A stretch of DNA of 62,344 nt, counting the filler. It is 9 parts of 9 records of this genome, joined end to end, with 100 filler letters (N's around TTAATTAATTAA, not from the genome) between each part and the next. Parts side by side here need not be neighbours in the genome. Positions count along the whole stretch, not along the records: positions 35,867 to 41,824 come from SRR31147125_108267; 8 more parts are not named here. One strand, written 5' to 3'. Positions within the stretch are counted from its first letter, which is position 1; each line of letters begins with the position of its first letter. The position numbers were made by a program, and so were the translations under genes. Below, in pieces: positions 6,486-56,184 of the stretch. Under the pieces are notes generated by a model. The model made no database searches and had not been told where the DNA came from. It saw only the letters and a list, made by a program, of their open reading frames with translations.

Positions 6486-6523
6486 CCCTGATGAGATAAA
6501 CGTAAAATGATGGAGGGGGCCCC

Positions 6524-7721: not shown

Positions 7722-7724
7722 ACA

Positions 7725-8789: not shown

Positions 8790-8794
8790 GACCG

Positions 8795-10047: not shown

Positions 10048-10644
10048 CGTGTGTGCTGGCATGGTATTCCAAACACTGCCTGGCTTAAGTTCTGTCATTC
10101 CCATTTGTAGCTGACAGGTTTCAACAACTGTGTTGATTAAGAGTTGATTGATATCTCGCTCATTAGAAGTTTCCAGTGAACCTAAATGAAGCACATTTGC
10201 ATCTTTTAAGGTAACTTGTTTTACTGGGTATTCTTTGTGAGCAGGTGCTGAATTAAAATAGAAATGTGCCGGTTTTTTTGAAACAGCTGATTTGAAAATA
10301 ACCTCTTTGTTTCCTTTCCCGATATAGAGAGCATCTTTAAATTCAAGGATATATTCTTTACCATCAACCAAAACACTTCCGGTATTTCCTACATTGATAA
10401 TACCAACTTCTCGTCTTTCGCAGAAATATTCTGCTTTAAGCGGCTCAATAGCTTCAAGTAATAATGGTTTTGATGCAGGTACAGCACCGCCAACAATGTA
10501 ACGCTCTATGTGAGAGTAAACCAGGTGAACATCGCCTGGAGTCATTAGTTCTTCTACTAAAAATTCTTTGCGAATTTTTTCTGTGTCGTATTGCTTAAAA
10601 TCGTCTGGATGATAAGCATACCTTTCTTCATAAATTGTTGCCAT
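10048..10644 (-). CDS. kduI: 5-keto-4-deoxyuronate isomerase, 3'-truncated
   Basis: RREVGIINVG, FYFNSAPAH and CQLQMGMTELKPGSVWNTMPAHT motifs. Confidence 0.95.
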
Positions 10645-10655
10645 AATTTTAAATT

Positions 10656-11822: not shown

Positions 11823-11849
11823 TTTAGAGTTAGTTTAGAGTTAATAATG

Positions 11850-11880
11850 CAAATATAGTACGAAATGGATGAAAATGCAA
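11850..11880 (-). promoter_or_regulatory. Bacteroidota-type promoter for GH88-kduI
   Basis: TATATTTG (11857-11850) matches the TAnnTTTG -7 box, with TTG 20 nt upstream (11880-11878). Confidence 0.6.
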
Positions 11881-11890
11881 TCGATTGCAT
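11875..11890. promoter_or_regulatory. LacI-family operator
   Basis: Perfect 16-bp palindrome ATGCAATCGATTGCAT with the AAnCGnTT core. It lies between the divergent LacI and GH88 genes and overlaps the -33 element. Confidence 0.8.
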
Positions 11891-11950
11891 CAATATTTAA
11901 TTAACACTTCATTTTTAAAAAATAATTGTCATATTTGTATCGCATTGATT

Positions 11951-31591: not shown

Positions 31592-32056
31592 ATGACACCT
31601 TTATTTAAAGAGACCAAAGAAAAAGACGGATTTGACTCCCTTGAACGGAAAATGGTCAGGACCCTGGCCCTTCATCGGGAGATGAAGAAACTGCTGGAAG
31701 CCGAATACGGCGCAGGGTTAAGCTATGATGCCAAGGCCCTGGAAAAACTGACCTTGAGAAAAAACAATTGTGTCAGCCGGTTTGAGCACCTGGTGGGATC
31801 CATCCGGGACCAGATGAAACGTATGGCGGCCCAGCCCCTTGCCCCCACCTGCCCCAGAACCCTGGCCAACCGCCTGAAGGCTATCCCCGGACTGACCCCG
31901 GAACTGGAAGAGCGGCTGCTGCCCCTGGCCAGACAGCTTGAAGAAGAGAACAAGGCCCTGATCAAGGCCTCCAGACGAAACGTTAAAATGCTCAGGGGGG
32001 TTATGGACCGAATCTGGGCGGTGTACCAATATACCCGCCAGGGGCAGATGGGATGA
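31592..32056 (+). CDS. flgN: FlgN-like export chaperone
   Basis: Helical, basic 154-aa protein whose stop overlaps the flgK start (ATGA). Assigned by position and helical pattern. Confidence 0.6.
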   Translation: MTPLFKETKEKDGFDSLERKMVRTLALHREMKKLLEAEYGAGLSYDAKALEKLTLRKNNCVSRFEHLVGSIRDQMKRMAAQPLAPTCPRTLANRLKAIPGLTPELEERLLPLARQLEEENKALIKASRRNVKMLRGVMDRIWAVYQYTRQGQMG

Positions 32057-35000
32057 GCACCTTAAGTGCCATACTCAATTCGGCAGCCTCGGCCCTGAGC
32101 ACCTATCAGTCGGCCATCAGCGTCACAAGCCAGAACATCGCCAATGCTGATAATGAAGATTACAGCATGCAGACCACGGAGTATGCTGCCAGTGACTCCA
32201 TCTCATACAGCGGCGAGATTTACGGCACAGGGGTGGAGGTCAGCGCCATCACCCAGGAGGTGGATCAGCTCCTGGAAAACCAGCTGACCACGGAGCTGTC
32301 CACCCAGGCTGCCCTGGAGGAAGAGGCCACCTATATCTCCCTGATAGAAGACTATTTCACCGAAGACACCGACGACAGCATTAATACCCTTTTGGACGAG
32401 TATTGGTCGGCCTGGGAAGCCCTCAGCGACACCCCTGCCGAAACCTCGGCCCAGGAGGAGGTCTACGCTGCAGGCGTTCAGCTGGCAGAACGGTTTAACG
32501 CCATCAGCGAGGGCCTGGAGGACATGATCAATGACCTGAACACCGAGATCTCCACCTCGGTGTCCGAGATCAACACCATCACCGCCCAGATTGCAGAGCT
32601 GAACCAGGCCATCATCGAAGCCGAGGCTTCCGGGGCCAATGCCAATGACCTTTCCGACGCCCAAAACGCCCTGGTGGACGATCTGGGGGAACTCATTGAC
32701 ATTGACATCACAATCAAAGAGGACGGTTCCTATCTTATCATGACCACCGGGGGGCTGCCCCTGGTGGAAGACCAGATTTCCCATGATCTTGAAGTCAGGG
32801 ACAACCAGATATACTGGTGCGGCAGTTCCGGCAGCGACTATGACATTACAGACGATATAGAGGGCGGCCAGCTGGCCGGCTGGCTGACCATGCGGGACGA
32901 AGTCATCCTGGAAGTCCAGGCTGAACTTGACGAGCTGTCCTCCGCCCTGATCTGGAGCATCAACTACCAGCATTCCCAGGGAGCGGGTCAGACCTTTTTT
33001 ACGGATGCCCTAGAGGGCACCTATGCCACAGGGGACAGCGGTACCCTGGACAGCCTGGACTACGGAGAAAACATTGACTACACCCAGGACTTTTCCATGG
33101 TTATCAGCGATGGGGACGGCAACACCCAGACCGTTACCGTGGACATGGCAATCTCCCGATCGGACATTTCGGAGATCCAGGGCAGTGCAGAGGCCAACGC
33201 CACCTATGAACTCACCGTGGTGGATGAGGGGGTGTTAGGGGATCAGACCGTCACCCAGAGTCAGGCGGACAGCGGAGTGACTTCGGCCGCCAGTATCACC
33301 GACGCCCTGGACGCGGCTTTGGGAGAGCAGACCCTGACCATCACCAGCAGCGACGGCACCCAGACCATTGATATCAGCGACTCGGATTCCGATGTCCGCC
33401 GCAGCGCGGCAGAAATTGCCGAGGCCCTGAACGATATTGACGGGATCACGGCCACGGCCTCCGCCACTGAAGTCGAATTTTCAACTGCCGGCCTCACCAC
33501 GGCCGAGGATGGGGATACCGTCAGCTTTACCCTCTATGTGGACGGTGTGGAAACCAGTGCCTCCTTTACCGTGGACAGCTCGGAAGGCACCCTGGATGAA
33601 CAGCTTGAACAGGCCCTGGAAACTGCCGTGGAGGAGATCAACGAGGACAACCAGAACACGGATCTCATGGTGGACGGCACCACCATTGAAAGCGCATCCG
33701 GGGCCACCATCGGCATCGAAGATTTCCAAGTCACGGACAATGCAGGGGTCACCCTGAGCAATTACACGGATTTTGACACCGGCGACACCATCTCATTCAC
33801 CGTTGAAAACGGCTCTGAATCCGTAACCATCTCCGTGGATTTAGACGGGGTAGACACCACAGATGCCGTTGCCATGGGTGAAAATATTTACGAGGCCCTG
33901 GAAGAGGAACTCGCCGACTATTCATTCTATGCAAACCTGGATGAGACCACCGGGGAGATCACCCTGGCCACGACAGACGGATCTGATCTGGTATTGTCTG
34001 CGGCCAGCGGCGATACAAGCTCCGATGCCAGTATTACCGTGACCACTCTGGGCACCAGCACCACCTCCGGGGACGGGCAGCTGGACTTTGACGGCAGCGA
34101 CTCGGAAACCATCACCCCTGTCACCTCCACTGCAGACTATATCGGATTTTCCCTGGTCGGATGCGAGGACAGCAGTGCCAGCAACGCCACCACCCAGGTG
34201 GGAGAAAGCGGCGGCGCCTATGACACGGCAGCCGTTGTCACGGGAAGCGTTACCATTGTCATGGAGCCGGATATCTCCATTGAATCCGATGATGACTCCG
34301 TCACAGGCCTTTTTGGCACGGATGGAGATTCCGGAGAGGCCGACAGCATGATCACCCTCGGCGGGACCGACGGTTATGAGGGGTTTGACGACGGGGATAC
34401 CATCACCTTTGAGGTGGACGGCACCACGGTCTCCTACACGGTAACAGACCCAGGTACGGGCCTCACAGATGCAGACCAGGCGGAACAGCTCTACACCGCC
34501 TTGAGCACCACCCTGGATTCCGACCAATACACAGTGGTCCTCAACGGCACCTCCGTGAGCATTGTCAGGACCTCTGATGAAGATGATCCCATGGAGATCT
34601 CCAATTTTACCGATGCCACAGGAAATGACGCCACCCTGGCCGTGTCCACGGGCACAGCCGATTCCGGCATTGATGATCCTTCAACAGATACCCTGATTTC
34701 AGGAGATACCCTGAGCAATTCAGCCACAGCCGTCACATACGGGGATGCCGCCCTGATCTATTGGGAGGAGTTTGACAGCGACGGAAATGCCACCGGAGAA
34801 TCCGGATATGTGGAAGTCGACACCCCGGGCCTTGTGGAAATCACAAACTCCGATGATGACACCATTATCAGTTTTGAGGTGTCCGAAGGCAACCTTGTGG
34901 CAGGCAATACCCTGATCATCAATACGGATTCAGAGGGCATGGTGGACGTGCTGGAGGCAGAGGCCTCGGGAACGGCCAACTCCATTGCCGACACCTACGA

Positions 35001-35766
35001 GTTCACCGTAACCACCGGCGGCACACTGCCGGACAGCGAAGAAGCCATTGTAATCACGTGGACCTCGGATACCGGATCCGGCACCATTGAACTTGAAAGC
35101 AGTGATGATGCCGATATCCCCATAACCGTTGAGGTGGACGGCATGAGCCTCACCCTGACCTCCGGCACCCTGGTGGAGGGAGATGTCTTTTACGTATCCA
35201 CAGATGAAAACGGCGAACCCATTACTTTGGAGGGGGATGGTTCGGACACCGTCACCACCCTGTCCGACTGGCATTGGACCCTGTCCTCCTTTGCAGATGA
35301 ATTCAACAGCAGCGCAGGCGGGCTCACCGCCACAGTGACGGATGACAACACCCTGTTGATTGATACCAATGAAGACTATTGCGCCATTGACGAGATCACC
35401 TACACCGATGAATACGGCATCAGCGAGGAGAACACCACCATCACCGTCACCAACTATACCGCCCTTGAAATCGAGGCAGACAGCCTCTCCTTTGTTCGCA
35501 CCGACGGGACCTGGGAGGTGGAGAACGACCCCACCGGCGGCACCATCCAGATCCTTCCCGAAGGCGGGGATGATGACGGTTTTTCTGTGGACCTTGACGG
35601 AGACGGCATTGGAGACATTGAGGTCACCTTTGACCAGGCTGTTTCCGGAGACGGCACCATTGAAATGGCGCTTGTGGAAACCGAATCCGAAGATTTCTCC
35701 TATGCCTTTGCCGGAACCGAGGACGGGGACAGCGGCCTGGCCGCAGCCCTGGGCCTGAACACCTTT
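32053..35766 (+). CDS. flgK: Giant hook-associated protein FlgK (>1238 aa), 3'-truncated
   Basis: SQNIANA..YS.Q, YGTGVEV, IAELNQAI, GGQLAGWL..RD, INYQHSQG, and LAAALGLNTF at the truncation. Confidence 0.9.
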
Positions 35767-35866
35767 NNNNNNNNNNNNNNNNNNNNNNNNNNNNNNNNNN
35801 NNNNNNNNNNTTAATTAATTAANNNNNNNNNNNNNNNNNNNNNNNNNNNNNNNNNNNNNNNNNNNN
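35767..35866. other. Artificial contig linker
   Basis: 44 N + TTAATTAATTAA + 44 N. Confidence 0.99.
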
Positions 35867-36206: not shown

Positions 36207-36710
36207 GTGGATCAACAGTTGAGCGAGCAGCGTTGCAGGGAATTGCTGGTATCATTGAGGAAAATTATCCAGGCCATTGATATCCATTCAAGGAAATTGA
36301 ACAAATTATTCGGATTGACAGGCCCTCAACTCGTTGTCCTTCAGGAAATCGCTGCTTTAAAGGAAATAAGCATCACCCCATTATCAAAGGCAACCAGTCT
36401 GAGCCAGGCAACGATTACGGATATCTGTAAGCGATTGGAAGTTAAAGGGTATTTGACCCGGAAGCGAAGAGAGGATGATAAGCGTTCCGTGAGCGTGGCT
36501 TTAACGGAAAAGGGAAAAGACGCCATAGAGGATTTGCCGCCCCTTTTGCAGGAAACATTTACCCATCGGTTTTCAAACATGGAAAACTGGGAACAGATGA
36601 TGATCCTGAGCGCATTTGAACGGGTTGTCCACTTAATGTCCGCAGATGAGATTGATGCATCCCCGATTATGGTAACCGGTCCGATTCAGACCTCCAATAA
36701 TCAGGCATAG
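36207..36710 (+). CDS. MarR-family regulator, EctR/CosR-like
   Basis: LRKIIQAIDIHSRKL..GLTGPQL, LSQAT, DKR, NWEQMMIL and MSADEIDASP resemble the EctR/CosR subfamily from recall. Confidence 0.82.
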   Translation: MDQQLSEQRCRELLVSLRKIIQAIDIHSRKLNKLFGLTGPQLVVLQEIAALKEISITPLSKATSLSQATITDICKRLEVKGYLTRKRREDDKRSVSVALTEKGKDAIEDLPPLLQETFTHRFSNMENWEQMMILSAFERVVHLMSADEIDASPIMVTGPIQTSNNQA

Positions 36711-36795: not shown

Positions 36796-38127
36796 TCAGA
36801 CGTCTCTGTATTTATAATGTTCCCGCTGTGTAACGTGAACCCTGTCTTCCTCCCACTCCCTGACCTTAAGGGTCATCATATTATTAAAAATGGCCTCCCC
36901 CATGGTTTCTTTTAAGAAATTGCTGCCTTCCGCTTCTACCAGGGCTTCATAAAAGCTTCTGGGTAAATAGGCTTCATCCCAGACCTTTAAACGGTTATTC
37001 TGATGATATGAGTTCCCTTTGTCGGCTTTGCCGCAATCTATTTTTTCCCTCATTCCGGCCAGCCCCATTGATATCAATACCGCCATTTGAAGGTAAACAT
37101 TTCCGGCCGGATCTGGATTGCGAAGCTCAATTCGGGTACTTTCCGGCGAGAGGGTATAGGGCACCCGGACCATGGAACTCCGGTTTCGGAGCCCCCATCC
37201 CCCGACAACAGGCGCCTCTTTTCCAAGTACATAGGCTTTGTAGGAATTCACCGTTGATGCCATGACAATGGAGGTCTGTCTTGCATATCTGAGAATACCC
37301 CCTATGAAATACCGGGCAAGGTCGCTTAACTGATATTTTGCATTGCTGTCATAGAAGAGATTTTGCCCGTTTAAATCCTGCATGGACAGATGGATGTGGA
37401 AGGCATTTCGATTATAATTTTCAAATGGCTTGGGCATGAAGCTGGCCGTAAAGCCGTTTTTTTCGGCAATTTGCTTTGCCGTATATGAAAAGAGCAGGGT
37501 CCGGTCTGCCGCTGCAAGGGCATCCGTGCATTCCAGATTGATTTCATGCTGTGAGGGGGTGACTTCATGGTGGGTTTTTTCATACTGGATGCCGCACCCG
37601 GCCAGGACATTGACAATATCCTGGCGGATGGATTCACCTTTGTCCGTGGGAGACGAAACAAAATAGCCGATATCATCGGAATGCTCCAACGCCGACATTT
37701 CATGGTCCGGGCCAACCGCCGGTTCCTCTTTGTTAAAGAGGAAAAATTCATATTCAGGCCCCACAATAAACCGAACCTGAAATTCTTGTTCTGCAGTCTT
37801 CAATACCTTTTTCAGCAGGTCCCTGGGATCCGTTGCAGAAGGATCTTTTTTTTCGTCGTAAATGTCTCCGATCAAAAACCCCACTGTTTTGTCGCCGAAA
37901 TCTATTCTTTTATAGGTGGACAAATCCGGGACCAGAAGGCGGTCGCTGTTTTCCACAGATGTATAACCGGCAATGGAACTGCCGTCGAAACCGACCCCGG
38001 TTTCACTCATTTTGTCAAGCATCGCCGGATTGACGAAGAGGTTCATGAGCCTTCCATTGATGTCGGTAAAAAATATTTTTGTAAAATCCACATCATTGTA
38101 TGGGTCATTTTCGGAATTTTCTTCCAT
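36796..38127 (-). CDS. Glutamine synthetase family protein (GSI-alpha-like) with atypical substrate pocket
   Basis: FDGSS, GPEYEFF, HHEV..QHEI, FMPKP, HIHLS, EAP, NRS..VR and RIELR.PD present. NSYKAY and NRNAFH replace NSYKRL and NGSGMH. Confidence 0.9.
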   Translation of the reverse strand: MEENSENDPYNDVDFTKIFFTDINGRLMNLFVNPAMLDKMSETGVGFDGSSIAGYTSVENSDRLLVPDLSTYKRIDFGDKTVGFLIGDIYDEKKDPSATDPRDLLKKVLKTAEQEFQVRFIVGPEYEFFLFNKEEPAVGPDHEMSALEHSDDIGYFVSSPTDKGESIRQDIVNVLAGCGIQYEKTHHEVTPSQHEINLECTDALAAADRTLLFSYTAKQIAEKNGFTASFMPKPFENYNRNAFHIHLSMQDLNGQNLFYDSNAKYQLSDLARYFIGGILRYARQTSIVMASTVNSYKAYVLGKEAPVVGGWGLRNRSSMVRVPYTLSPESTRIELRNPDPAGNVYLQMAVLISMGLAGMREKIDCGKADKGNSYHQNNRLKVWDEAYLPRSFYEALVEAEGSNFLKETMGEAIFNNMMTLKVREWEEDRVHVTQREHYKYRDV

Positions 38128-38363: not shown

Positions 38364-39290
38364 TTAGGATATCACATAGCCGTGCCCATTTGCTTTGTCG
38401 ATGTCGGCAAGCCCCTCCCTTACTTCCTCCATCTTTTTTTTGAAAGAAGAAAACTGATCCGGGCGCCCGGCAATGTAGACACCTGCATACAGTCCGCCCT
38501 TTTCTTCAACAGGCAATACCGTTTTTTGGCGATGGCTGAGTATGCTGAGCACATCCTCTCTTTCCTTGTCATCAACAAATTGCCTCTGGTGCAAATAGAT
38601 GCCCGGGATCCTGCCAAAGGCGTATCCGTGGGATTCAAAAGCCTTTTGAATGGGCTGGTCATCAAACATTCTCAATATGGTCAATACGGCAAACGGGCCG
38701 TATGCCGAAGGGTGGGAGTTCCCAAAAATATCAAGAACCTGGCGAAGGGTCTTCTGGGTGACATAGCCGATGGCCCCTGTACTGACCATAAGATTACAGG
38801 CGCTGATCCAGTCTTTTTCCTTTTTAGATAATTCATGGGACCCATTCTCAAGATTTTTGGATATGCCGAAATCAAGGAGCCCTGATTTGACAGCAAAGTC
38901 GATGGCTTCTTTTGAACAGTCAAGACCGGCGCAGCGAATTCCCCCCAAGGGTGACACAACATTGAGCCACATCCGGGTGGCATCACAGCAGGATTTCCTC
39001 TCCACCGGTGCCCTGGATCCAAAAAAGGAAACGATTTCATCAAAGGAACAGCCATATCTTAAAAGGGCGGAGCCTATTCCGTAGGAGCATCCGATATCAA
39101 GCATCTGAACGGGAAAGGCTTCCCCGTTTCTGTCAGCTAAAAACTGGGCTGCCGCCAGAATAAACGGCCGGGCGTTTTCACCAATCCGGTATTGATGGTC
39201 ATCCATTGTTGCCAGATAATCATGGGGCGTATCTGCGATATATACATTGTTAAAATCTGCTTTTACCTCATTCCCCTCTTTGTATCCCAT
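38364..39290 (-). CDS. Class I SAM-dependent methyltransferase-like protein
   Basis: Motif I MLDIGCSYG, motif II GLDCS, STGAIGY. ATG 39290 follows GGAGG. Confidence 0.72.
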   Translation of the reverse strand: MGYKEGNEVKADFNNVYIADTPHDYLATMDDHQYRIGENARPFILAAAQFLADRNGEAFPVQMLDIGCSYGIGSALLRYGCSFDEIVSFFGSRAPVERKSCCDATRMWLNVVSPLGGIRCAGLDCSKEAIDFAVKSGLLDFGISKNLENGSHELSKKEKDWISACNLMVSTGAIGYVTQKTLRQVLDIFGNSHPSAYGPFAVLTILRMFDDQPIQKAFESHGYAFGRIPGIYLHQRQFVDDKEREDVLSILSHRQKTVLPVEEKGGLYAGVYIAGRPDQFSSFKKKMEEVREGLADIDKANGHGYVIS

Positions 39291-39876
39291 AAGTCCTCCA
39301 TATAGTTTTATCATTTTAGGAGTTCAATTGTAGCCGATAGAAGCGTTTCAAGAACACGTAGCAAGATGTTCTATGGGGTATAATAGAAAAGCATAGATGT
39401 CAATATACTTTTTTGGAAAAAAGTCTTTTGAAATCAAGGATTGGGTATGATTTGGGTGTGAAATTTACATACAACACAATGTATCTGTCCGAATTATCAC
39501 ATTATAGGGGGCAGGTGTAAAATTACAAAGTGGATATTGTGAAAATATTTTGAGTACGATGGATTCTTTATGCGACCTTTTTAAGTGCGTTTCCTGAATC
39601 GACTGTTTTAATAGTGTTTTGTGGGCTGGCTGGGTGGTGTGAGTTGAAGGGGGCTTGATTTTTTTGTTTGAATACAATATAAGCTAAGCCTGTTAATTGT
39701 TTAGAGTGCAAAACGATATAGGCGGAATAATCTTAATTTTAGAGATGATTGATAGGGTGCATACAATATAGCTTGATTCAATTGGCTGTTTTCCATGGGG
39801 TTTAGGCTTTTGGAAAGCAGTTTTTTTGTTCCGATCCATTGCCGGCAACTTGAAAGGAATACGTTAACAAGAGCAT

Positions 39877-41067
39877 ATGACAGTAAAAATAAAGATTGAA
39901 AACATAGTGAAGGTATTCGGAAAAAAGCCGAAACAGGCTTTGTCAATGATAGAAAAGGGGATGTCCAAAGGAGAAATTCTTGAAAAGACCGGCTTGGGCG
40001 TGGGCGTAAGCCATGCCAGCTTTGAGGTTTTTGAAGGTGAAATTGTCGTTGTCATGGGGCTTTCCGGAAGTGGGAAATCCACACTTGTCAGGTGTCTTAA
40101 CCGATTGATTGAGCCCACGCTCGGAAAAATCATTGTCGACGGTACGAATGTCACCCAATTGTCTCCGGAGGAACTCAGACTCTTCAGGCAGAATAAATTC
40201 GGCATGGTCTTCCAGAATTTCGCCCTTTTCCCCCATAGAACAGTGGTGCAGAATACGGAATACGGCCTGGAAGTCAAAGGGGTTGACAAAGATGTCCGCC
40301 GGAAAAAGGCCATGGAGGTCTTGGAACAGGTCGGCCTTTCCGAGTGGAAAGATTCCCTGCCGGATCAGCTGAGCGGGGGGATGAAGCAGCGGGTCGGGCT
40401 TGCCAGGGCCCTTGCCCTGGATCCGGATATTCTGTTGATGGACGAAGCCTTCAGTGCATTGGATCCCCTGATCCGGCGCGACATGCAGGATGAATTGATC
40501 GAGCTCCAGAGCAGGCTGAATAAAACCATCATCTTTATCAGTCACGATCTTGACGAAGCATTAAAACTTGGGGACCGGATCGTTCTGATGAAGGACGGCG
40601 CCATTGTCCAGGTGGGAACTCCTGATGAAATTCTTTCCAATCCCGCCACTCGCTATGTGGAAAAATTTGTAGAAGACGTGGACATGACCAAGGTGCTCAC
40701 AGCGGATTCCATCAAGAGAAAAACAAAGGCCTATGGCATCATAAATAATGACGGACCCAAATCCATCCTGAGAAAAATGGATAAGGCCGGGGTTTCATAT
40801 GTATGCATGGTTTCAAAGGATAGCCGGTTTATCGGCATGGTGAGCGATGATGACGCCGCAGGCGCATTGAAAGCCGGCGCCACAAAGCTGGACCATATCA
40901 TTCAAAAAGAGATCAGGACCGCCAGTCCTGAAACGCCTGCAGTGGAACTTTTGGACCTGCTCAAGGATATCTCCTATCCTTTGGCCGTGGTGACCGATGA
41001 GGGGAAACTCAGCGGTGTGATAACCAAAGGTTCTCTTTTATCTGCGCTATCCCAGGGAGGTCACTAA
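39877..41067 (+). CDS. proV: Glycine betaine/proline ABC transporter ATPase with CBS domains
   Basis: GLSGSGKST, LSGGMKQR, MDEAFSALDPLIR and a C-terminal CBS pair. Confidence 0.95.
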   Translation: MTVKIKIENIVKVFGKKPKQALSMIEKGMSKGEILEKTGLGVGVSHASFEVFEGEIVVVMGLSGSGKSTLVRCLNRLIEPTLGKIIVDGTNVTQLSPEELRLFRQNKFGMVFQNFALFPHRTVVQNTEYGLEVKGVDKDVRRKKAMEVLEQVGLSEWKDSLPDQLSGGMKQRVGLARALALDPDILLMDEAFSALDPLIRRDMQDELIELQSRLNKTIIFISHDLDEALKLGDRIVLMKDGAIVQVGTPDEILSNPATRYVEKFVEDVDMTKVLTADSIKRKTKAYGIINNDGPKSILRKMDKAGVSYVCMVSKDSRFIGMVSDDDAAGALKAGATKLDHIIQKEIRTASPETPAVELLDLLKDISYPLAVVTDEGKLSGVITKGSLLSALSQGGH

Positions 41068-41824
41068 TGCCGGTATCCATACCCAAAATACCCATCGGAG
41101 AGATCATCGAAGCCAGTATCGATTTTCTGGTTGAGCATTTTTCATCGGTGACCAAGATTGTATCGGATGTCACGGAAACCGGGATTGATGGATTAATCGA
41201 CGCTATGCTTTTTTTGCCGCCGATATTTTTTATCATATTGATTTCATTCGGGGTCTTCCTGGTGACCCGCAAGAAATCCATTTCAGTTTTTTCTTTATTA
41301 GGCTTTTCACTGATCCTGAACATGGGGCTCTGGGATGCCACCGTCAGCACCTTGGCCCTTGTCTGTGTGGCTACCCTGGTGACCATTGCAGTGGGGCTTC
41401 CTCTGGGCATCCTTGCGGCCTTGAATGATACTGCACATAAAATCATTATCCCTATTCTCGATTTTATGCAGACCATGCCTGCATTTGTTTACCTGATCCC
41501 TGCCATTCCCTTTTTTGGCCTTGGAAAAGTGGCCGCCATATTCTCGACCATGATATTTGCCATGCCCCCGACCATCCGGCTGACTTCTCTGGGAATCCGC
41601 CAGATTCCGGAGGAACTTATCGAGGCTGCCGATGCCTTTGGGTCAACAAAGGCCCAGAAATTATTCAAACTTCAAATTCCCATGGCATCCCCAACCATTA
41701 TGGCGGGTATCAATCAGGCCATAATGCTGGCACTTTCCATGGTGGTGATTGCCGCCATGATCGGGGCAAAGGGGCTTGGCGGCGAAGTCTGGAAAGCCAT
41801 TCAGCGCCTTCAGCCGGGCAGGGG
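41067..41824 (+). CDS. proW: Glycine betaine/proline ABC transporter permease, 3'-truncated
   Basis: LDFMQTMPAFVYLIP, EAA motif and GINQAIMLALSMVV. Confidence 0.95.
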
Positions 41825-41924
41825 NNNNNNNNNNNNNNNNNNNNNNNNNNNNNNNNNNNNNNNNNNNNTTAATTAATTAANNNNNNNNNNNNNNNNNNNN
41901 NNNNNNNNNNNNNNNNNNNNNNNN
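41825..41924. other. Artificial contig linker
   Basis: 44 N + TTAATTAATTAA + 44 N. Confidence 0.99.
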
Positions 41925-50373: not shown

Positions 50374-51783
50374 CTACATATATTTATAGCCAACCGATGA
50401 ATTGTCCTGTTTGTATTCAATCAGTGCATTCACCACTTTATCAAAAAGTTCCTGTGTTCCGGTATATCCCAAATGCTTAATCCGTTGCCCACCAATACGG
50501 TCATGAATAGGAAAGCCACAACGTACAATTGGAATCTTCAATTCTCTAGCAATATAATATGCCTTGCTGTTTCCAATCATGATGTCGGGTTGGTTATCCA
50601 TACACCATTCGTGGATTTTTTCATAATCATATCCATTTTTTGCAAGAATTTTTTCACCTCGTTCCGGACAGTATTTATTTATTTCTTCTTGTAATCTGCC
50701 ACTTTCACCACCAGTTGCAGCCAAGGCTACATCAATCCCTATTTCATCAAGGAATGTGGTCATGGCTATTACAAAATCTTCTTCGCCATAAACAACAGCC
50801 TTTTTCCCGAATATATATTTGTGCCCATCAGCATAGGAATCAATGAGTCTTCCTCGCTCTCCTTTGCATTTTGCAGGGATATCTTTTCCAGTAATTTGCT
50901 GAAGGGTTTCGTAAAAACCATCGGTATTTTTCACCCCTATCGGGAATGGCAACCGATGGTTTTGCACGCCAAGCTCTTTTTCCAGATAATCTGCACCCGA
51001 ACTCGAAAGGCTTTTACTTTTTACTCTGCCAGACAAACTTCCCAAGTTCAGGATGGTTCCAAATTCGATTGATGCAGCTGCAGTACCGGTAGTTTCAATC
51101 TTTTCAACCGACGTTCCACCTTCTGGAATACGTTTATATGTTTGCCAAATTGGGTTGTCAAGCGTTTCCGAATAGTCGGGAAGCAAAACGAAATCAATAC
51201 CAAAATCATTCAATAAATATTTTAATTGTCGGATATCTTCAGTTGAAACAAATCCAGGGAAAATATTAATGTGCTTGCCTTTTTCACCGCCTTTGGCAAA
51301 GGTTTTTACAGTTGAAGCAACTGCTTCATGAAAACCATCCATATGTGAGCCCTGATAACTAGGAGTGGCAGCTGTGACAAAACGGGGCAGATCTTTTTTG
51401 TCTTTTCCCTCTTGATAATTATGAATATAAAACTTCACATCATCACCAATCGTTTCACTCAAACAGGTTGTGCTCATCGCAATCACCTCTGGTTTGTATG
51501 AACGAATTACATTGTCAATTGCCATATGACAGTTTGCCCCTCCACCAAAAATGGTTGATTCTTCAGAAAAGTTAGAAGAAGCAATATCTACTGGTTCTTT
51601 ATAATGACTAATTAAATAACGGCGAATGTATGTTGCACATCCTTGTCCGCCATGAATAATTGGTACACATCCGCGAATCCCTTTAAATGCAATTGCGGCT
51701 CCCAGTGGAGCACACATTTTACACGCATTGCGTGTTGCGGTAAATTCTTTTGTTGATTTTATGACTGGTGCGTATTCAAACAT
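50374..51783 (-). CDS. nifN: Nitrogenase cofactor scaffold NifN
   Basis: NACKMCAPLG, HGGQGC, TTCLSETIGDD and GFPIHDR, downstream of nifE. Start likely at 51783 (ORF track 51849). Confidence 0.88.
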   Translation of the reverse strand: MFEYAPVIKSTKEFTATRNACKMCAPLGAAIAFKGIRGCVPIIHGGQGCATYIRRYLISHYKEPVDIASSNFSEESTIFGGGANCHMAIDNVIRSYKPEVIAMSTTCLSETIGDDVKFYIHNYQEGKDKKDLPRFVTAATPSYQGSHMDGFHEAVASTVKTFAKGGEKGKHINIFPGFVSTEDIRQLKYLLNDFGIDFVLLPDYSETLDNPIWQTYKRIPEGGTSVEKIETTGTAAASIEFGTILNLGSLSGRVKSKSLSSSGADYLEKELGVQNHRLPFPIGVKNTDGFYETLQQITGKDIPAKCKGERGRLIDSYADGHKYIFGKKAVVYGEEDFVIAMTTFLDEIGIDVALAATGGESGRLQEEINKYCPERGEKILAKNGYDYEKIHEWCMDNQPDIMIGNSKAYYIARELKIPIVRCGFPIHDRIGGQRIKHLGYTGTQELFDKVVNALIEYKQDNSSVGYKYM

Positions 51784-51796
51784 GTTCTTCAAATTT

Positions 51797-51831
51797 TTGA
51801 GTTTCGAGTTTCGAGTCACAGGTTTCGAGTT
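51797..51831. repeat. Five tandem heptamers (consensus TCGAGTT)
   Basis: TTGAGTT TCGAGTT TCGAGTC ACAGGTT TCGAGTT between nifE and nifN. Confidence 0.75.
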
Positions 51832-51855
51832 CTTCTCCCCTCTCTTCAACCTTCT

Positions 51856-53184
51856 CTATTTAATAAATTGCCAAACCGGGCTACAAACAGAAGCATGCAC
51901 CTCTTTTGCAAAATTGAGCATACCCTCAAAGCCTGCCAAAGCTTCTTTTCGCTCGTGATTATGGTCACAAAAACCTAATCCAAGTTTATAAGCAATTGGG
52001 CGTTCCTTAACTCCTCCAATAAAAAGGTCGGCACCGGTTTGTTTCACAAATTCAGAGAGTTCGTTTGGGTTGGAATCATCCACGATAATTGTTCCATCGT
52101 CGCATAAATCTTTTAGCAGGTTGTAATCATCCTGATTTCCTGTTTGCGAACCAACCACCACGGTTTTCATTCCAATTAATCGCAATGCCTTAACCAGAGA
52201 TATTGCCTTAAAAGCACCTCCCACATAAATGGCTGCTTTTTTGCCTTCTACATCCTTTCGGTAAGGTTGCAATGCCGGCAACAATTGACTCAATTCCTCC
52301 CTAACCAATTCCCGGGCTTTCTGCATCATTTCATCCGATTTAAAAAACTTCGCTACTTCGTAAAGAGCATCTGCCATATCCTCAATTCCGAAATAAGAAA
52401 CCTTCATAAAAGGAATGTTATATTTTTCTTCCATTTCTTTTGCCAAGCCAATCATTGAGCCTGAACACTGAACCACATTTAATTGAGCGGTATGTGCTTT
52501 TCGAACCTGATCTATCCGACCATCACCTGTCATGCAGGCAACCAGATTAACTCCCATTTTCTTGTAATACTCCGATAACATCCAGAGTTCACCAGCCAGG
52601 TTGAAGTCTCCCAAGATATTTAAACTGTATTTTGGTGCCTGATACGATTTGTCAGTTCCAATTAATTTTGACAAAGCCCCACATGCTATTTTGTATCCAT
52701 CTTTTTTTGTTCCGCTGAAACCTTCAGCCATAACAGCAATTACATCGATTCCCTTTTCTTTAGTCACCCTTTTACAAATAGCTTCAACATCATCACCTAT
52801 CACCCCAACAATGCAGGTTGCATAAACAAATGCACCTTTGGGCTTATACATATCGATTAAACTAATTAGCGCATTGTAGAGGCGTTGTTCACCTCCAAAA
52901 ACAACTTCTTTTTCTTTTAAATCCGTAGTAAAACTTAGTCTGTGAATTTGAGGTCCCGAGGATAAAGCTCCTCGAATATCCCATGTATAAGCGGCACAAC
53001 CAACAGGTCCATGAATAAGATGCAACGCATCGGCAATTGGGTATAGCACAACCCGCGAGCCACAAAATACACATGCACGCTGACTAACTGAACCAGCTAA
53101 ACTTGCTTTATCGCAAACTATTTGGTTCTGATCTTTTCCTTTTTCAAGGATTTGTGTTCTTCTATCTTTTAATAATTCCTTCAT
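51856..53184 (-). CDS. nifE: Nitrogenase cofactor scaffold NifE
   Basis: SQRACVFCGS, HGPVGC, TCIVGVIGDD, VQCS and CDHNHER motifs. Confidence 0.93.
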   Translation of the reverse strand: MKELLKDRRTQILEKGKDQNQIVCDKASLAGSVSQRACVFCGSRVVLYPIADALHLIHGPVGCAAYTWDIRGALSSGPQIHRLSFTTDLKEKEVVFGGEQRLYNALISLIDMYKPKGAFVYATCIVGVIGDDVEAICKRVTKEKGIDVIAVMAEGFSGTKKDGYKIACGALSKLIGTDKSYQAPKYSLNILGDFNLAGELWMLSEYYKKMGVNLVACMTGDGRIDQVRKAHTAQLNVVQCSGSMIGLAKEMEEKYNIPFMKVSYFGIEDMADALYEVAKFFKSDEMMQKARELVREELSQLLPALQPYRKDVEGKKAAIYVGGAFKAISLVKALRLIGMKTVVVGSQTGNQDDYNLLKDLCDDGTIIVDDSNPNELSEFVKQTGADLFIGGVKERPIAYKLGLGFCDHNHERKEALAGFEGMLNFAKEVHASVCSPVWQFIK

Positions 53185-53280
53185 GATTATTCTTTTTTAT
53201 TAAAGGGGAGACCGGGAGAAATAGCCCCCCTTCTTTTGACATTATGAAGAACGATTGTTCCGAAGTGGGTTTTCCGAAAC

Positions 53281-53305
53281 TCCTTCCCTCTGGCTGAAGG
53301 AAGGA
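53281..53305 (-). terminator. Stem-loop after nifK
   Basis: TCCTTCC...GGAAGGA arms 15 nt downstream of the nifK stop. May step down expression from nifDK to nifEN. Confidence 0.4.
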
Positions 53306-53320
53306 TATCTTTAGTGTGAG

Positions 53321-54702
53321 TTACATCACTAGTTCAAATGATTCCTCAGGAGTAGTTGCATCTTGATGATCCATCAACACACTTAGTATCTTTTCAAGGA
53401 TTCGCATACCACCTACGTAACCTACCGATGGGAAGTAGCTATGTCCAATACGATCAAGAATTGGGAAACCCATGCGAACAAATGGAATACCTTCGTCTCT
53501 GGAAATGTATTTTCCGTAGGTATTTCCAATGATCAGGTCAACTGGCTCCTCTTTAATCCATTGGTGCATTAGGAACATATCGGCTTGAGCCCCGTTTTTA
53601 TATTTTGCTTCCGGACAACGTTCTGAAACTAATGCTTCCATTTTTTTGCTAAAACTTTTTCTGGAGTACCAGAAACTGTATAAACCGGTTTCATATCCAT
53701 ATCCAATAAAAATTCGATTAGCGGAAGAATATTATCAGGATCGCCAAAAACAGCAACACGCTTACCGTATAGGTATTGGTGCATATCTGTAATTGCATCA
53801 ACCAAACGACCACGCTCATCGGAAATACTCTCTGGAATAGAAACTTTTCCTGCGCTAGCCATTGCCTGAATAAAACGATCGGTTGCGCTAAGTCCAATTG
53901 GAAGATCTGTAATGTCGAAAGGAACTTTACATTTATTATCAAGACTAATTGCTGCTTGTTTTGTTCCCCATTCACCTAAGCCAATTGTTTTCATACTATC
54001 GCCCATGCTCACCATTTCAGGAATTGTAGTTCCTCCTTTAGGGTACATTTCGTATTTCCCAGTCATTGGCGTATCCAGTACATCAGACGTATCGGGCAAA
54101 AGAACAGACTTTACTTTCATTAGTTTTGTCAATCTTTTCAGCTCACGCATATCTGATGGCTCTACCCAACCAGCCAATAAGTTTACTTGTCTTACCTTTT
54201 CATCTGTTTTTTCAGCAAAGTATTTTACAATACCTTCCAACATATTGGCGTAGCCCGTAACATGAGAACCAACATAACTTGGAGTTGAAGCCTGAATTAC
54301 GTGTTTTCCCAAAGGAATTTTACCGTCTTCTTTTGCCTTAGCTACAATTTGCCCAAGGTCATCGCCAATTGTTTCAGACAAACAAGTTGAGTGAACTGCA
54401 ATAATTTCAGGTTCATAAACTGAAAAGATATTGTCAATCGAAGTTAGCAAGTTAGACTGACCTCCAAATACAGAAGACCCTTCAGTAAATGAACTGGTTG
54501 CAGCCATTACAGGCTCTTTGTAGTGACGAGTAATTGCACTTCGGTGATACGAGCAACAACCTTGTGATCCGTGGCTATGTGGAAGACATCCATGTACTCC
54601 CAATGCAGCGTACATCGCTCCAACCGGCTGGCATGTTTTTGCCGGGTTAACTGTTAAAGCTTTCCGCTCTTTTACTTTATCTGTTGTATGTTTTAATAAC
54701 AT
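53321..54702 (-). CDS. nifK: Nitrogenase MoFe protein beta chain; 1-nt frameshift at about 53641-53662
   Basis: NPAKTCQPVGA, HGSQGC and STCLSETIGDD. Adding one base gives SGTP(G)KSFSKKMEALV, joining the C-terminal ORF ending FELVM. Confidence 0.95.
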
Positions 54703-54719
54703 CTTTTATCCTCCTATTT

Positions 54720-56184
54720 TTAAGCGTCAATAGTCATACTTCCAACAATCTCTGGCTCATTCTTCCATGGAGTATCTACCAACTTCCAAATGTTTGTATC
54801 CAGCATACGTTGCATTTCTTTGTAAAAATTGATAGCACCATCGAATGCCGTGTACGGCCCACCATAATCGTAAGAGTGTAATTGTTTTAGAGGGACACCA
54901 TATTTTTGAACCACGTATTTTTCTTTAATACCGGCACAAAAAACATCAGGCTTATAGAACTCAATTAATTTTTCAGTTTCCCAGTGGTTCACATCATCAA
55001 TTACCAATGAGTTCTTTTTCATTTCAGGCATCATACCTTCATAATCGCTAAAGTTGTACCCTGATTTTTTCAAGAGACTCTTTCTTCGCTGCCAGATCAT
55101 CGCGGTAATGCGCATCATCTTTACTGACAACCAAGTCTTCAATATTCCGGGTATCTGCATCAATCTTGATGTCTGGAATTACTTTACGTCCTTCATAATC
55201 ATCGCGGTGAGCAAACTCATAACCAGCAGAAACAACATTAATTCCCAGCTCATTAAACAAATCCTGATAGTGGTGAGCACGAGATCCACCAACAAACATC
55301 ATTGCCAATTTGCCTTCAACATGAGGTTTTACTTCTGCTCTTACCAACTCAACTTTAGCGATCTCACGAGCACATATCTCGTCAACTTTAGCAATCAGAT
55401 CTGCATCAGCAAAGTATTCAGCAATTTTCTTTAATGACTTAATGGTTGATTCAGCACCAACAAAGCTTACCTTGATCCATGGAATTCCGTATTTCTCTTC
55501 CATCATTTCAGCAATGTAGTTAATGGAACGGTGACACATTACCATGTTTAAGTCGGCAGTATGTGAATACTCCATGCTTTCGATGGTTGAGTTACCAGAG
55601 AATGTTGATAATAAAGTGATGCCGGCTTCTTCAAATAGTTCTTCAATTTCGAAAGCATCACCACCAATGTTGTATTCTCCCAATAAATTCACCTGGAATT
55701 TTCCTTCGCGTTTACGATCGTTATTACCAACAACGTTTTTAAACACCCCGTTATTCGCAATGTGGTGACCAGCAGACTGAGAAACTCCACGATAACCTTC
55801 GCAGCTGAATCCAAAAATATTAATTCCCAATTCTGCTTTCATCTCACGAGATACTGAATGCACATCATCCCCAATCAGACCAACCGGACAGGTTGAGAAA
55901 ATACCAATTGATTTTGGGTTGAACATTTCATATGCTTCGCGAATGGCGTCTTTCAATTTTGCTTCACCACCAAATACAATGTTTTCATCTTGCATATCGG
56001 TAGAGAACGAGTAAGTGATGAAGTTATCACCTCCTTCAGGAACACGCGTTTGGTTACGACGGGTTAACCATGCATAAAAACTACAGCCAATTGGTCCGTG
56101 CACCAAGTTAATAATATCGCGTGTAGGTCCTAAAACCACCCCTTTACATCCAGCATAGGTACAACCACGCTGCGTAATAATACC
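54720..56184 (-). CDS. nifD: Nitrogenase MoFe protein alpha chain (group II, with insertion); 5'-truncated; 1-nt frameshift at the T6 run 55065-55070
   Basis: QRGCTYAGC, HGPIGC, TCPVGLIGDD, FeMoco ligands MCHRS and QLHSYDY. Removing one A gives SLEKSGYNFSDYEGM. Confidence 0.95.

What the first reader, a model, noticed from the sequence alone, without database searches (positions are those of the whole stretch)
36796..38127. Glutamine synthetase with a rewired glutamate pocket in an osmostress locus: candidate beta-glutamine (or other amide osmolyte) synthetase
Seen: the metal and ATP residues (EYE, HHEV..QHE, HIH, NRS..VR, ELR) and the ammonium-site motifs (FDGSS, GYF, flap EAP) are intact. 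However, NSYKRL is NSYKAY (Ala codon 37234-37236), NGSGMH is NRNAFH (Arg codon 37408-37410), and the flap GYEAP is GKEAP. Established: in Salmonella GS, Arg321 of NSYKRL binds the glutamate alpha-carboxylate and Asn264/Gly265 contact the amino group. Beta-glutamate and beta-glutamine are known compatible solutes. Inference: losing one Arg and gaining another nearby moves the carboxylate anchor, so the enzyme probably amidates a substrate other than alpha-glutamate. Beta-glutamate is the best guess given the flanking EctR/CosR-like regulator and proVW.
Basis: partly seen in the sequence, partly recalled or inferred. Interest (0 to 1): 0.75.

Follow-up and report, generated by a model that had tools for sequence, protein, structure and literature searches.

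The report
Glutamine-synthetase paralog with rewired pocket
A relative of marine sulfate-reducing bacteria carries an intact glutamine-synthetase-like enzyme whose glutamate-holding residues have been swapped; in related genomes this enzyme nearly always sits beside an enzyme that makes beta-amino acids, so it probably makes an amide solute such as beta-glutamine for salt protection.

Summary
The ORF at 36796-38127 (-) encodes a 443-aa GS-fold protein. All metal, ATP, phosphate and ammonium residues are intact. NGSGMH reads NRNAFH, NSYKRL reads NSYKAY, and the flap Tyr/Phe is Lys.

These changes define a sharply separated Desulfobacterota clade (R240 in 166 of 166 rows, A298 in 165 of 166). 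The 12 ordinary GS sequences aligned as an outgroup all keep Gly and Arg at these positions.

The test is positive in relatives: 40 of 48 clade-positive genomes have a KamA-family radical-SAM gene next to the GS-like gene. Three have asnO-ngg (NAGGN osmolyte genes) beside it, including the closest cultured relative, Desulfocicer vacuolatum.

In this window there is no aminomutase within 62 kb. The gene lies between a MarR regulator, an uncharacterised SAM methyltransferase and proVW, which form an osmoprotectant module.

[quoted passage not shown] The commonest partner aminomutase has no cationic pocket residue for glutamate, so the substrate remains unproven.

The scan noted the same gene pair before on other DNA (e1-1355153). 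My searches of the held library found no paper on it.

The parts
36796..38127 (-). GS-like amide synthetase (443 aa) with a rewired acyl-substrate pocket
   Evidence: ORF and translation. Pfam Gln-synt_N/C. TIGR00653 score 372 bits, below the cut-off of 429. Clade signature.
37408..37410 (-). Codon of Arg240. It replaces the Gly of NGSGMH (Gly265 in Salmonella numbering, which is recalled).
   Evidence: R in 166/166 clade rows versus G in 12/12 ordinary GS.
37234..37236 (-). Codon of Ala298. It replaces the Arg of NSYKR (Arg321 in Salmonella numbering, which is recalled).
   Evidence: A in 165/166 versus R in 12/12.
37219..37221 (-). Codon of Lys303, the flap residue before the catalytic Glu304. 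It is Tyr/Phe in ordinary GS.
   Evidence: K/R in 159/166 clade rows.
37201..37203 (-). Codon GGG of Gly309, a window-specific departure from the clade's Arg
   Evidence: R in 150/166 rows. All closest relatives shown (P0002-P0007, L117, L156, L001) have R.
38364..39314 (-). 316-aa class I SAM-dependent methyltransferase of an uncharacterised family, upstream on the same strand (236-bp gap)
   Evidence: The window protein has no Pfam or NCBIfam hit. 23 of 101 family members hit Methyltransf_12. AF2 with an alignment gives pLDDT 94. Foldseek top hits are small-molecule methyltransferases, with TM only 0.3-0.4.
36207..36710 (+). MarR-family regulator, convergent with the GS-like gene
   Evidence: Pfam MarR. 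59-63% identical MarRs sit next to the GS-like gene or asnO-ngg in L134-L136.
39877..41067 (+). proV: betaine/proline/choline-type ABC ATPase with CBS domains
   Evidence: TIGR01186 score 454.5 bits, above the cut-off of 326.6. Pfam ABC_tran plus CBS.
41067..41876 (+). proW-like permease. Its end lies in a masked N stretch.
   Evidence: BPD_transp_1. Best NCBIfam hits are choline and ProW permeases, both below their cut-offs. No OpuAC binding-protein gene is found in the window.
39315..39876 (.). Divergent intergenic region between the methyltransferase gene and proV, with sigma-70-like matches on both strands
   Evidence: Simple consensus scan: 11 promoter-like sites against 8.0 +/- 3.2 expected, so not significant on its own. 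Rfam gives no hit.

Best explanation
The gene encodes an active, ATP- and ammonia-dependent amide synthetase of the glutamine-synthetase fold. That the machinery is intact is shown. The two-metal site, the ATP and phosphate arginines, the Asp50'-loop ammonium site and the catalytic flap Glu are all conserved, so a carboxylate should be phosphorylated and then attacked by ammonia.

That the acyl-substrate pocket was rebuilt is also shown. The Arg that holds the glutamate alpha-carboxylate is Ala. The Gly whose backbone contacts the amino group is Arg. The flap Tyr/Phe is Lys/Arg, and several neighbouring residues differ.

The substrate is inferred. The clade is tied to KamA-family 2,3-aminomutases, so the acyl substrate is most likely a beta-amino dicarboxylate, beta-glutamate, and the product is beta-glutamine, an uncharged compatible solute.

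In this window the gene is detached from the aminomutase. It sits inside an osmoprotectant module (MarR, SAM methyltransferase, proVW). The beta-glutamate would therefore have to come from an unlinked gene or from uptake.
For: Catalytic residues are kept in 165-166 of 166 clade rows, and the pocket signature is invariant.

The clade is split from ordinary GS by a branch of 2.29 changes per site with SH-aLRT 100 (quick tree). The other GS or GS-like sequences tabulated from the and loci (<=39% identity, about 100 rows) keep the NSY[KR]R arginine, apart from a few misaligned rows.

A KamA-family gene is adjacent in 40 of 48 clade-positive genomes out of 401 sampled. No other neighbour family exceeds 8 of 46 loci.

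The partner type changed several times on the GS-like tree, while the GS-like pocket stayed the same. This argues for one substrate supplied by interchangeable aminomutases.

Ten partners (K728, K600 and R429 types) carry Lys or Arg at the position of Asp293 of lysine 2,3-aminomutase, which fits an acidic side chain.

The osmolyte context is consistent. D. vacuolatum (86% identical ortholog) has asnO-ngg-GS-like-Kam728 on one strand, with asnO and ngg above their NCBIfam cut-offs. proVW and a conserved MarR lie here.

The clade lacks the Arg62-type residue that mediates glutamine feedback in B. subtilis GS (0 of 166 rows; mechanism read in passages of PMC10799026).

G001 and G002 each also carry canonical GS genes.

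Beta-glutamine is a known solute made by GS from beta-glutamate in Methanohalophilus (review PMC1224877, passages).
Against: No KamA-family gene, asnO, ngg or second GS lies within the 62-kb window. No genome is held for the window, so the partner's presence cannot be checked.

The commonest partner (E/A type, 30 of 40) has Glu/Ala at the two Asp positions. A Glu there should repel a glutamate side chain and fits a neutral amide (glutamine) better.

The pocket gains up to four cationic residues (R63, R240, K/R303, R309) and loses one. That could mean a more anionic substrate than beta-glutamate.

An ordinary-looking GS already accepts beta-glutamate in Methanohalophilus, so rewiring is not strictly needed.

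The window protein has R309G and 5 departures at columns conserved >=90%, against a median of 2.

Kam362-type genes also occur without the GS-like gene in 25 genomes.

No RNA, solute or enzyme data exist. My searches found no report of beta-glutamate or beta-glutamine in Desulfobacterota.
Confidence: 0.45

Rival explanations
1. It is a dedicated alpha-glutamate-to-glutamine synthetase that escapes feedback. Arg240 takes over the anchoring role of the lost Arg. The enzyme supplies large amounts of glutamine for nitrogen-rich solutes: NAGGN through Ngg/AsnO, and beta-glutamine through a 'glutamine 2,3-aminomutase' (the E/A-type partner).
For: The E/A partner pocket (Glu/Ala) suits a neutral amide side chain better than a carboxylate. 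The gene is adjacent to asnO-ngg, whose pathway consumes glutamine, in L135, L136 and L156. The Arg62-type feedback residue is absent. The amino-group ligand Glu127 and all chemistry residues are kept.
Against: G001 and G002, the two genomes checked, each already hold one or two canonical GS genes. In Desulfuromusa a canonical-type GlnA sits in the same cluster as the GS-like gene. About a dozen invariant pocket changes are hard to explain if the substrate is unchanged. Glutamate-binding residues are described as perfectly conserved across bacterial and archaeal GS (PMC10799026, passages).
Confidence: 0.2
2. It amidates a different acid. Candidates are another beta-amino acid made by the aminomutases, an N-acylated or more anionic dicarboxylate, or a solute precursor handled together with the neighbouring methyltransferase. 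The product would be an undescribed amide solute.
For: There is a net gain of cationic residues around the pocket. Partner aminomutases have four different pocket types: E/A, K/N-like, R and S. In this window the upstream gene is a small-molecule-type SAM methyltransferase. Its homologs sit beside Asn-synthase-like amidotransferases in L172, L183, L219 and L255.
Against: The methyltransferase's conserved partners are MarR and OpuA-type transporters, not the GS-like gene. It was found in only 3 of 401 genomes, against 48 for the GS-like gene. No candidate compound is indicated by any data.
Confidence: 0.25
3. In this particular genome the gene is drifting after losing its aminomutase partner, and it is weakly active or inactive.
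For: All three closest relatives keep Kam728 directly downstream, and the window does not. The window has R309G and H126Y, with 5 departures at conserved columns against 0-2 in its nearest relatives. R/K309 is lost in 3 of 8 partner-less rows against 1 of 34 partnered rows (small numbers).
Against: The reading frame is full length and every catalytic and signature residue is intact. Five departures lie within the clade's range (90th percentile 7.5). In G244, G195 and G024 the GS-like gene and a partner-type aminomutase lie on different contigs.
Confidence: 0.07

Closest known systems
Type I-alpha glutamine synthetase (Methanosarcina mazei GS, PDB 8tfb/8ufj; Bacillus subtilis GS, 4lni)
   Same: Same two-domain fold and length. 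The alignment is gap-free over the active-site motifs, at about 40% identity by my estimate from the printed alignment. Metal, ATP, phosphate and ammonium residues and the flap Glu are identical.
   Different: The glutamate-holding Arg (NSYKR) is Ala. The Gly of NGSG is Arg. The flap Tyr/Phe is Lys/Arg, and there are further invariant changes. The score lies below the NCBIfam GlnA cut-off.
Methanohalophilus portucalensis GS acting on beta-glutamate (Robinson et al. 2001; seen only as cited in review PMC1224877 and in a reference list)
   Same: The proposed reaction is the same: beta-glutamate plus ammonia plus ATP gives beta-glutamine as a compatible solute.
   Different: That enzyme is the organism's general GS with a side activity. 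The present clade is an extra paralog with a rebuilt pocket, found in bacteria.
Gamma-glutamyl-amine ligases of the GS family (PuuA/GGputSyn NF045547; glutamate-methylamine ligase, PDB 9qur, 7cql)
   Same: They are GS-fold paralogs with changed specificity. They give weak matches (214 bits to NF045547, cut-off 650; 9qur E 1.9e-45).
   Different: As I recall, those enzymes keep the glutamate site and alter the ammonium site. Here the pattern is the reverse. The GMAS-like Pelagibacter and Hoeflea sequences fetched keep NSY[KR]R but have lost FDGSS.
[quoted passage not shown] 2022; both seen only in reference lists)
   Same: The logic is the same: a KamA-family aminomutase makes a beta-amino acid, and a second enzyme neutralises a charge to give a solute.
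   Different: The second enzyme here is a GS-type amidase of a carboxylate, not an acetyltransferase. None of the partner aminomutases reaches the cut-off of TIGR04368, TIGR03820 or TIGR04468. No bona fide TIGR04368 member was found in 301 genomes searched.
NAGGN system (asnO-ngg; TIGR03104/TIGR03103)
   Same: It is adjacent to the GS-like gene in D. vacuolatum and two other genomes. Both concern glutamine-derived amide solutes.
   Different: asnO and ngg are absent from this window. No role for a GS paralog in the NAGGN pathway is known to me (recalled).

Membership tests
Type I glutamine synthetase (GlnA, NCBIfam TIGR00653) | Gln-synt_N beta-grasp domain plus Gln-synt_C catalytic domain | tested here: met
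   PF03951 at 65.9 bits and PF00120 at 333.2 bits, both above their cut-offs.
Type I glutamine synthetase (GlnA, NCBIfam TIGR00653) | Score above the curated equivalog cut-off | tested here: not met
   372.3 bits against a cut-off of 429.15. The Desulfuromusa ortholog scores 348.5, while its canonical neighbour scores 468.6.
Type I glutamine synthetase (GlnA, NCBIfam TIGR00653) | Metal, ATP and phosphate ligands and the ammonium site (Asp50', Ser53', Tyr179, flap Glu) | tested here: met
   E125, E127, E188, E195, H244, H246, E334, R316, R321, R336, D48, S51, Y155 and E304 are kept in 165-166 of 166 clade rows.
Type I glutamine synthetase (GlnA, NCBIfam TIGR00653) | Glutamate-binding Gly (NGSG) and Arg (NSYKR), described as perfectly conserved in bacterial and archaeal GS | tested here: not met
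   R240 and A298. The conservation statement comes from passages of PMC10799026. Mapping its numbering onto this protein is my inference from the motifs.
Gamma-glutamyl-amine ligases (PuuA, GMAS) | Glutamate site kept and ammonium site altered to take an amine (recalled definition); score above the family cut-off | tested here: not met
   NF045547 scores 213.9 against a cut-off of 650. The ammonium site is intact and the glutamate site is altered.
Aminomutase-linked GS-like clade of Desulfobacterota (this scan, e1-1355153; no published name found) | NR[NS]A.H plus NSYKAY signature and clade membership | tested here: met
   (a 4-row group with three K728-partnered relatives, support 100).
Aminomutase-linked GS-like clade of Desulfobacterota (this scan, e1-1355153; no published name found) | KamA-family gene adjacent | tested here: not met
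   None in the window at tblastn E<=1e-3 or among NCBIfam hits. It is met in 40 of 48 other genomes.
Beta-glutamate-ammonia ligase (proposed activity) | Preference for beta-glutamate over alpha-glutamate | not testable with these tools
   This needs an enzyme assay. No model coordinates or docking were available.
ProU/OpuA-type osmoprotectant ABC transporter | ATPase with CBS domains, permease, and substrate-binding protein | tested here: inconclusive
   proV is above the TIGR01186 cut-off. The permease is below the ProW and choline-permease cut-offs. No OpuAC-type binding protein is in the window.
Class I SAM-dependent methyltransferase (upstream 316-aa gene) | Rossmann-like methyltransferase fold with a glycine-rich SAM motif | tested here: met
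   Family consensus LDxGCSYG. 23 of 101 members hit PF08242. The model has pLDDT 94. 188 PDB matches at E<=0.001, and the listed top hits are methyltransferases. The window protein itself has no Pfam hit.

The most novel reading that the evidence does not exclude
Marine sulfate reducers and their relatives possess a dedicated two-enzyme route to beta-glutamine: a radical-SAM 2,3-aminomutase plus a glutamine-synthetase paralog re-specialised for the beta-amino acid. Beta-glutamine is so far known only from halophilic methanogens. In this genome the synthetase has been uncoupled from the aminomutase and recruited into a MarR/methyltransferase/ProVW module. This may extend the chemistry to a methylated amide solute or to amidation of an imported beta-amino acid.
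Probability: 0.35. Interest if true: 0.75.

Novelty: new variant of a known kind. Interest (0 to 1): 0.6.

Why it matters
According to the 2005 review I read in passages, beta-glutamine is a compatible solute detected in Methanohalophilus species, where the housekeeping GS makes it. My searches of the held library found no dedicated enzyme or bacterial producer. This clade occurs in 48 of 401 sampled genomes of one class of Desulfobacterota, a group important in marine sediments.

If it is a beta-glutamate-ammonia ligase, three things follow:
- It would define the residues that switch GS from alpha- to beta-amino acids.
- It would add a nitrogen-rich solute to the osmoadaptation and nitrogen budget of sulfate reducers.
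- It would give function to very large unnamed KamA families. At least 7,994 proteins matched the 728-aa type at E<=1e-10.

A cultured strain with the full operon (Desulfocicer vacuolatum DSM 3385) makes the question directly testable.

Tried and rejected
1. The window's own genome is not held, so an unlinked aminomutase could not be sought.

2. EpmB idea. EpmA-like genes lie 3-5 kb from Kam362 in 4 loci. I rejected the reading that Kam362 is the EF-P lysine aminomutase. E. coli EpmB has Asp at the first lysine-binding position. G024, G136 and G162 carry separate Asp/Asp-type paralogs (EpmB-like and AblA-like), and G195 an AblA-like one. Kam362 scores 197 against a cut-off of 369 on TIGR03821.

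3. AF2 of the methyltransferase without an alignment failed (pLDDT 35.6). It was repeated with 101 sequences.

4. Rfam gave no family at gathering score in the whole window.

5. The promoter/terminator scan was not above the shuffled expectation. Co-transcription of the methyltransferase and GS-like genes is therefore only a possibility.

6. Sequencing runs: no RNA holder is listed.

7. The protein atlas was unreachable in two tries.

8. Verifying the recalled Lys/Asn rule for glutamate 2,3-aminomutase failed. No TIGR04368 member above the cut-off was found in 301 genomes. The one near-hit (550 bits) has Gln/Thr. The rule therefore remains recalled.

9. Tunckanat 2022 and Robinson 2001 are not held and were seen only in reference lists. 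No supplements were consulted.

10. Contexts of Kam362 in genomes without the GS-like gene showed no consistent partner.

11. My ORF caller missed Kam362 in L142, L153 and L155. This was corrected by tblastn.
Full report
**The observation.** The ORF at 36796-38127 on the minus strand encodes 443 residues. It has Gln-synt_N and Gln-synt_C domains. It scores 372 bits on NCBIfam GlnA, below the curated cut-off of 429.

The best solved relatives are GSI-alpha enzymes of Methanosarcina, Methanothermococcus and Bacillus (E about 1e-88 to 1e-82). In the printed gap-free alignment, NRNAFH lies over NGSGMH and NSYKAYVLGKEAP lies over NSYKRLVPGYEAP. The assignment of these residues to glutamate binding rests on two things. 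One is my recollection of the Salmonella GS literature. The other is passages of Müller et al. 2024 (PMC10799026), which list the equivalent Gly and Arg among glutamate-binding residues 'perfectly conserved' in bacterial and archaeal GS.

**It is a clade, not an accident.** A database search returned 120 listed homologs at 55-86% identity, mostly from Desulfobacterales. Of these, 119 carry NSYKAY, and all but one that my pattern could read carry NR[NS]A.H.

I aligned 166 clade rows (these proteins plus those read from fetched loci, not de-duplicated) against 12 ordinary GS sequences. The differences are:
- R240: 166/166 versus Gly 12/12
- A242: 166/166 versus Gly 11/12
- A290: 99% versus Asn 12/12
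- A298: 165/166 versus Arg 12/12
- Y299: 165/166 versus Leu/Ile
- K/R303: 159/166 versus Tyr/Phe
- R309: 150/166
- R/K63, in the Asp50' loop: 163/166 versus mostly Met

All metal, nucleotide, phosphate and ammonium ligands and the flap Glu are kept in 165-166 rows. The Arg that locks the flap during glutamine feedback in B. subtilis GS is never present (0 of 166).

The roughly 100 other GS or GS-like sequences tabulated from the and loci (<=39% identity) include Dehalococcoidia, Asgard archaea, and Pelagibacter and Hoeflea GMAS-like proteins. Apart from a few misaligned rows, all keep the NSY[KR]R arginine. A quick IQ-TREE puts the clade on a branch of 2.29 changes per site with SH-aLRT 100. 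The careful search did not finish, so this is the quick tree only.

**Genomic company elsewhere.** With E<=1e-120, the GS-like gene was found in 48 of 401 genomes sampled from the class of Desulfocicer vacuolatum. I fetched about +/-9 kb around 40 of them and used seven Desulfuromonadales and Desulfobacter loci from an earlier scan.

By ORF comparison, tblastn and the coordinates of a second genome search, a KamA-family radical-SAM aminomutase lies next to the GS-like gene in 40 of the 48 genomes:
- 30 of a 357-362-aa type
- 5 of a 728-aa type
- 4 of a ~600-aa type
- 1 of a 429-aa type

The eight without it are G024, G244, G206, G195, G136, G162, G029 and G130. In G130 the contig ends 345 bases after the gene. 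Three of these eight (G244, G195, G024) hold a partner-type aminomutase on another contig. My ORF caller had missed the aminomutase in L142, L153 and L155, and tblastn corrected this.

No other neighbour family is found in more than 8 of 46 loci. The runners-up are ABC ATPases, hydantoinase/oxoprolinase-like proteins, M20 peptidases and HDAC-like deacetylases.

At genome level, the GS-like gene and the 357-aa aminomutase type co-occur in 32 genomes, with 16 having the GS-like gene only, 25 the aminomutase only, and 328 neither. These genomes are related to each other, so this is not an independent-sample statistic.

**What the partners say about the substrate.** The 357-aa type aligns without gaps to Clostridium lysine 2,3-aminomutase (2a5h). 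It keeps the CxxxCxxC cluster, the carboxylate Arg and the PLP Lys. It has Glu and Ala at the positions of the two lysine-binding Asp residues. The 600-aa and 728-aa types have Lys, and the 429-aa type has Arg, at the first of those positions.

A cationic residue there fits an acidic side chain. As I recall from Ruzicka & Frey 2007, the Clostridioides glutamate 2,3-aminomutase has Lys/Asn. I could not verify this: no member above the TIGR04368 cut-off was found in 301 genomes, and the one near-hit has Gln/Thr.

None of the partners reaches the cut-off of the lysine, arginine or glutamate aminomutase models. The GS-like pocket residues are the same whichever partner is present, and partner type changed several times on the tree. 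This argues that the different aminomutases serve one GS-like function. The Glu/Ala pocket of the majority type is the main obstacle to calling that function 'beta-glutamate amidation'. It would suit glutamine better.

The idea that this type is merely the EF-P enzyme EpmB was rejected. E. coli EpmB has Asp at the first lysine-binding position. G024, G136 and G162 also carry Asp/Asp-type EpmB-like and AblA-like paralogs, and G195 carries an AblA-like one.

**Osmolyte context.** In D. vacuolatum (86% identical ortholog) the order on one strand is asnO, ngg, GS-like, Kam728. asnO scores 952 bits against a cut-off of 570, and ngg scores 790 against 569, so both are the N-acetylglutaminylglutamine-amide genes. 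Two further genomes have asnO-ngg and a MarR gene beside the GS-like gene (L135, L136). The MarR proteins of L134, L135 and L136 are 63%, 59% and 60% identical to the window's MarR. One genome has proV and proW-like genes directly after the GS-like gene (L119).

**The window itself.** Here the gene order is MarR (+), GS-like (-), a 316-aa gene (-), then divergent proV-proW (+). The 62-kb window has no KamA-family gene, asnO, ngg, second GS or OpuAC binding protein. Sixteen masked N runs total 704 bases and are too short to hide a gene.

The 316-aa protein has no Pfam or NCBIfam hit itself, but it belongs to a family of 431 representatives. Of 101 members scanned, 23 hit Methyltransf_12. A model built with 101 sequences has pLDDT 94. 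It matches class I small-molecule methyltransferases: MmtN, BamL, NmbA, PNMT and NNMT. The TM-scores are only 0.3-0.4, so this fixes the fold class and not the function.

Its homologs are rare in the class sample (3 of 401). In genomes and metagenome contigs the close homologs (>=39% identity, 18 loci) show a recurring order of MarR, methyltransferase, ProV-like ATPase, OpuA permease/binding fusion. MarR lies upstream in 6 loci and the ATPase directly downstream in 5. Asn-synthase-like amidotransferases lie nearby in 4 loci overall. The methyltransferase therefore belongs with MarR and the transporter. The GS-like gene appears to have been placed inside that osmoprotectant module.

The window protein departs from its clade at R309 (Gly, codon GGG 37201-37203) and at four other well-conserved columns. 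That is more than its nearest relatives show (0-2) but within the clade's spread.

**Interpretation.** Three things are shown:
- The amide-synthetase machinery is intact and the acyl pocket is rebuilt in a conserved way.
- The clade has a strong and specific linkage to 2,3-aminomutases.
- The gene is repeatedly placed next to osmolyte genes.

The rest is inferred: that the acyl substrate is the aminomutase product, most simply beta-glutamate, giving beta-glutamine. Passages of the 2005 review (PMC1224877) describe beta-glutamine as a Methanohalophilus solute made by GS from beta-glutamate. I put this reading at about 0.45.

The rivals are:
- a feedback-free alpha-glutamate GS that feeds glutamine to NAGGN synthesis and to a glutamine aminomutase (0.2)
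- amidation of some other acid (0.25)
- functional drift in this genome (0.07)

**Novelty and earlier scan notes.** The following searches of the held library found no description of this clade or of beta-glutamate or beta-glutamine in Desulfobacterota:
- 'beta-glutamine' + 'osmolyte'
- 'glutamate 2 3-aminomutase'
- four terms on aminomutase, beta-glutamate and methanogens
- 'beta-glutamate' + 'glutamine synthetase' + 'aminomutase'
- 'beta-glutamate' + 'Desulfo'
- NAGGN + GS + Desulfo

Subscription-journal papers are mostly not held, so this is not proof of absence.

The scan itself noted the same gene pair earlier on other DNA (e1-1355153), and noted the orphan aminomutase clades (e1-5275144, e1-4656268). 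My adjacency counts and residue analysis were made independently and agree with those notes. What this window adds is a member detached from the aminomutase and embedded in a MarR/methyltransferase/ProVW module. No RNA data were available.

Noticed in passing
window 38364-39314 (-); L172-L174, L176-L195: An uncharacterised family of ~300-aa class I SAM methyltransferases (431 representatives). Its close members recur in the order MarR, methyltransferase, ProV-like ATPase, OpuA permease/binding fusion, sometimes with an Asn-synthase-like amidotransferase. It may be a solute-modifying enzyme tied to osmoprotectant uptake.
   Followed up: partly
L002/L156 (Desulfocicer vacuolatum) 6125-13995 of L002: A single-strand cluster of asnO, ngg, GS-like and a 728-aa KamA-family gene. 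NAGGN genes are fused with the GS-like/aminomutase pair in a cultured strain, which makes it a convenient experimental system.
   Followed up: partly
L003 6587-11263 (Desulfuromusa MAG); also L005, L009: A cluster of GntR, a 362-aa aminomutase, a canonical-type GlnA (473 aa, above the TIGR00653 cut-off) and the GS-like gene. Two different GS enzymes lie in one putative operon.
   Followed up: partly
L117 10510-12696 and homologs: The 728-aa KamA-family protein belongs to a very large unnamed family. At least 7,994 proteins match at E<=1e-10, with about 60% identity across Bacteroidota, Ignavibacteriales, Nitrospinales and Desulfobacterota. It has Lys at the lysine-aminomutase Asp293 position and a large insertion before the PLP lysine.
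   Followed up: partly
window 37201-37203 and 37750-37752: The window's GS-like protein has Gly309 and Tyr126, where 150/166 and 160/166 clade rows have Arg and His. R/K309 is missing in 3 of 8 rows without an adjacent aminomutase but in only 1 of 34 with one.
   Followed up: partly
window 53321-54702 (-): nifK appears as two overlapping ORFs: 357 aa matching model positions 54-402, and 106 aa matching 423-505. This may be a frameshift or a sequencing error within a nifDK-nifEN cluster (50374-56139).
   Followed up: no
window 32053-35814 (+): A very long (at least 1253 aa), highly acidic FlgK hook-associated protein with a large Asp/Glu/Thr/Ser-rich insertion. Its end runs into a masked stretch.
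   Followed up: no
window, 16 runs, e.g. 35767-35810 and 35823-35866: Paired 44-base N runs separated by 12 bases recur every 5-8 kb (704 N in all). These are masked stretches, not assembly gaps of unknown size.
   Followed up: no
L268 (G052:C22): A 451-aa KamA-family protein scores 550 bits on the glutamate 2,3-aminomutase model (cut-off 650). It has Gln and Thr at the two lysine-binding Asp positions, yet another pocket type.
   Followed up: no
L174 (G022:C2) 2183-11940: A same-strand cluster of Asn-synthase-like, metallo-beta-lactamase-fold, MttB-like (non-Pyl trimethylamine methyltransferase family), CN-hydrolase, MarR, PAS, a 171-aa unknown, the methyltransferase, and an OpuA ABC transporter. 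It lies about 5 kb from a Kam362/GS-like pair and looks like a quaternary-amine or amide solute island.
   Followed up: no
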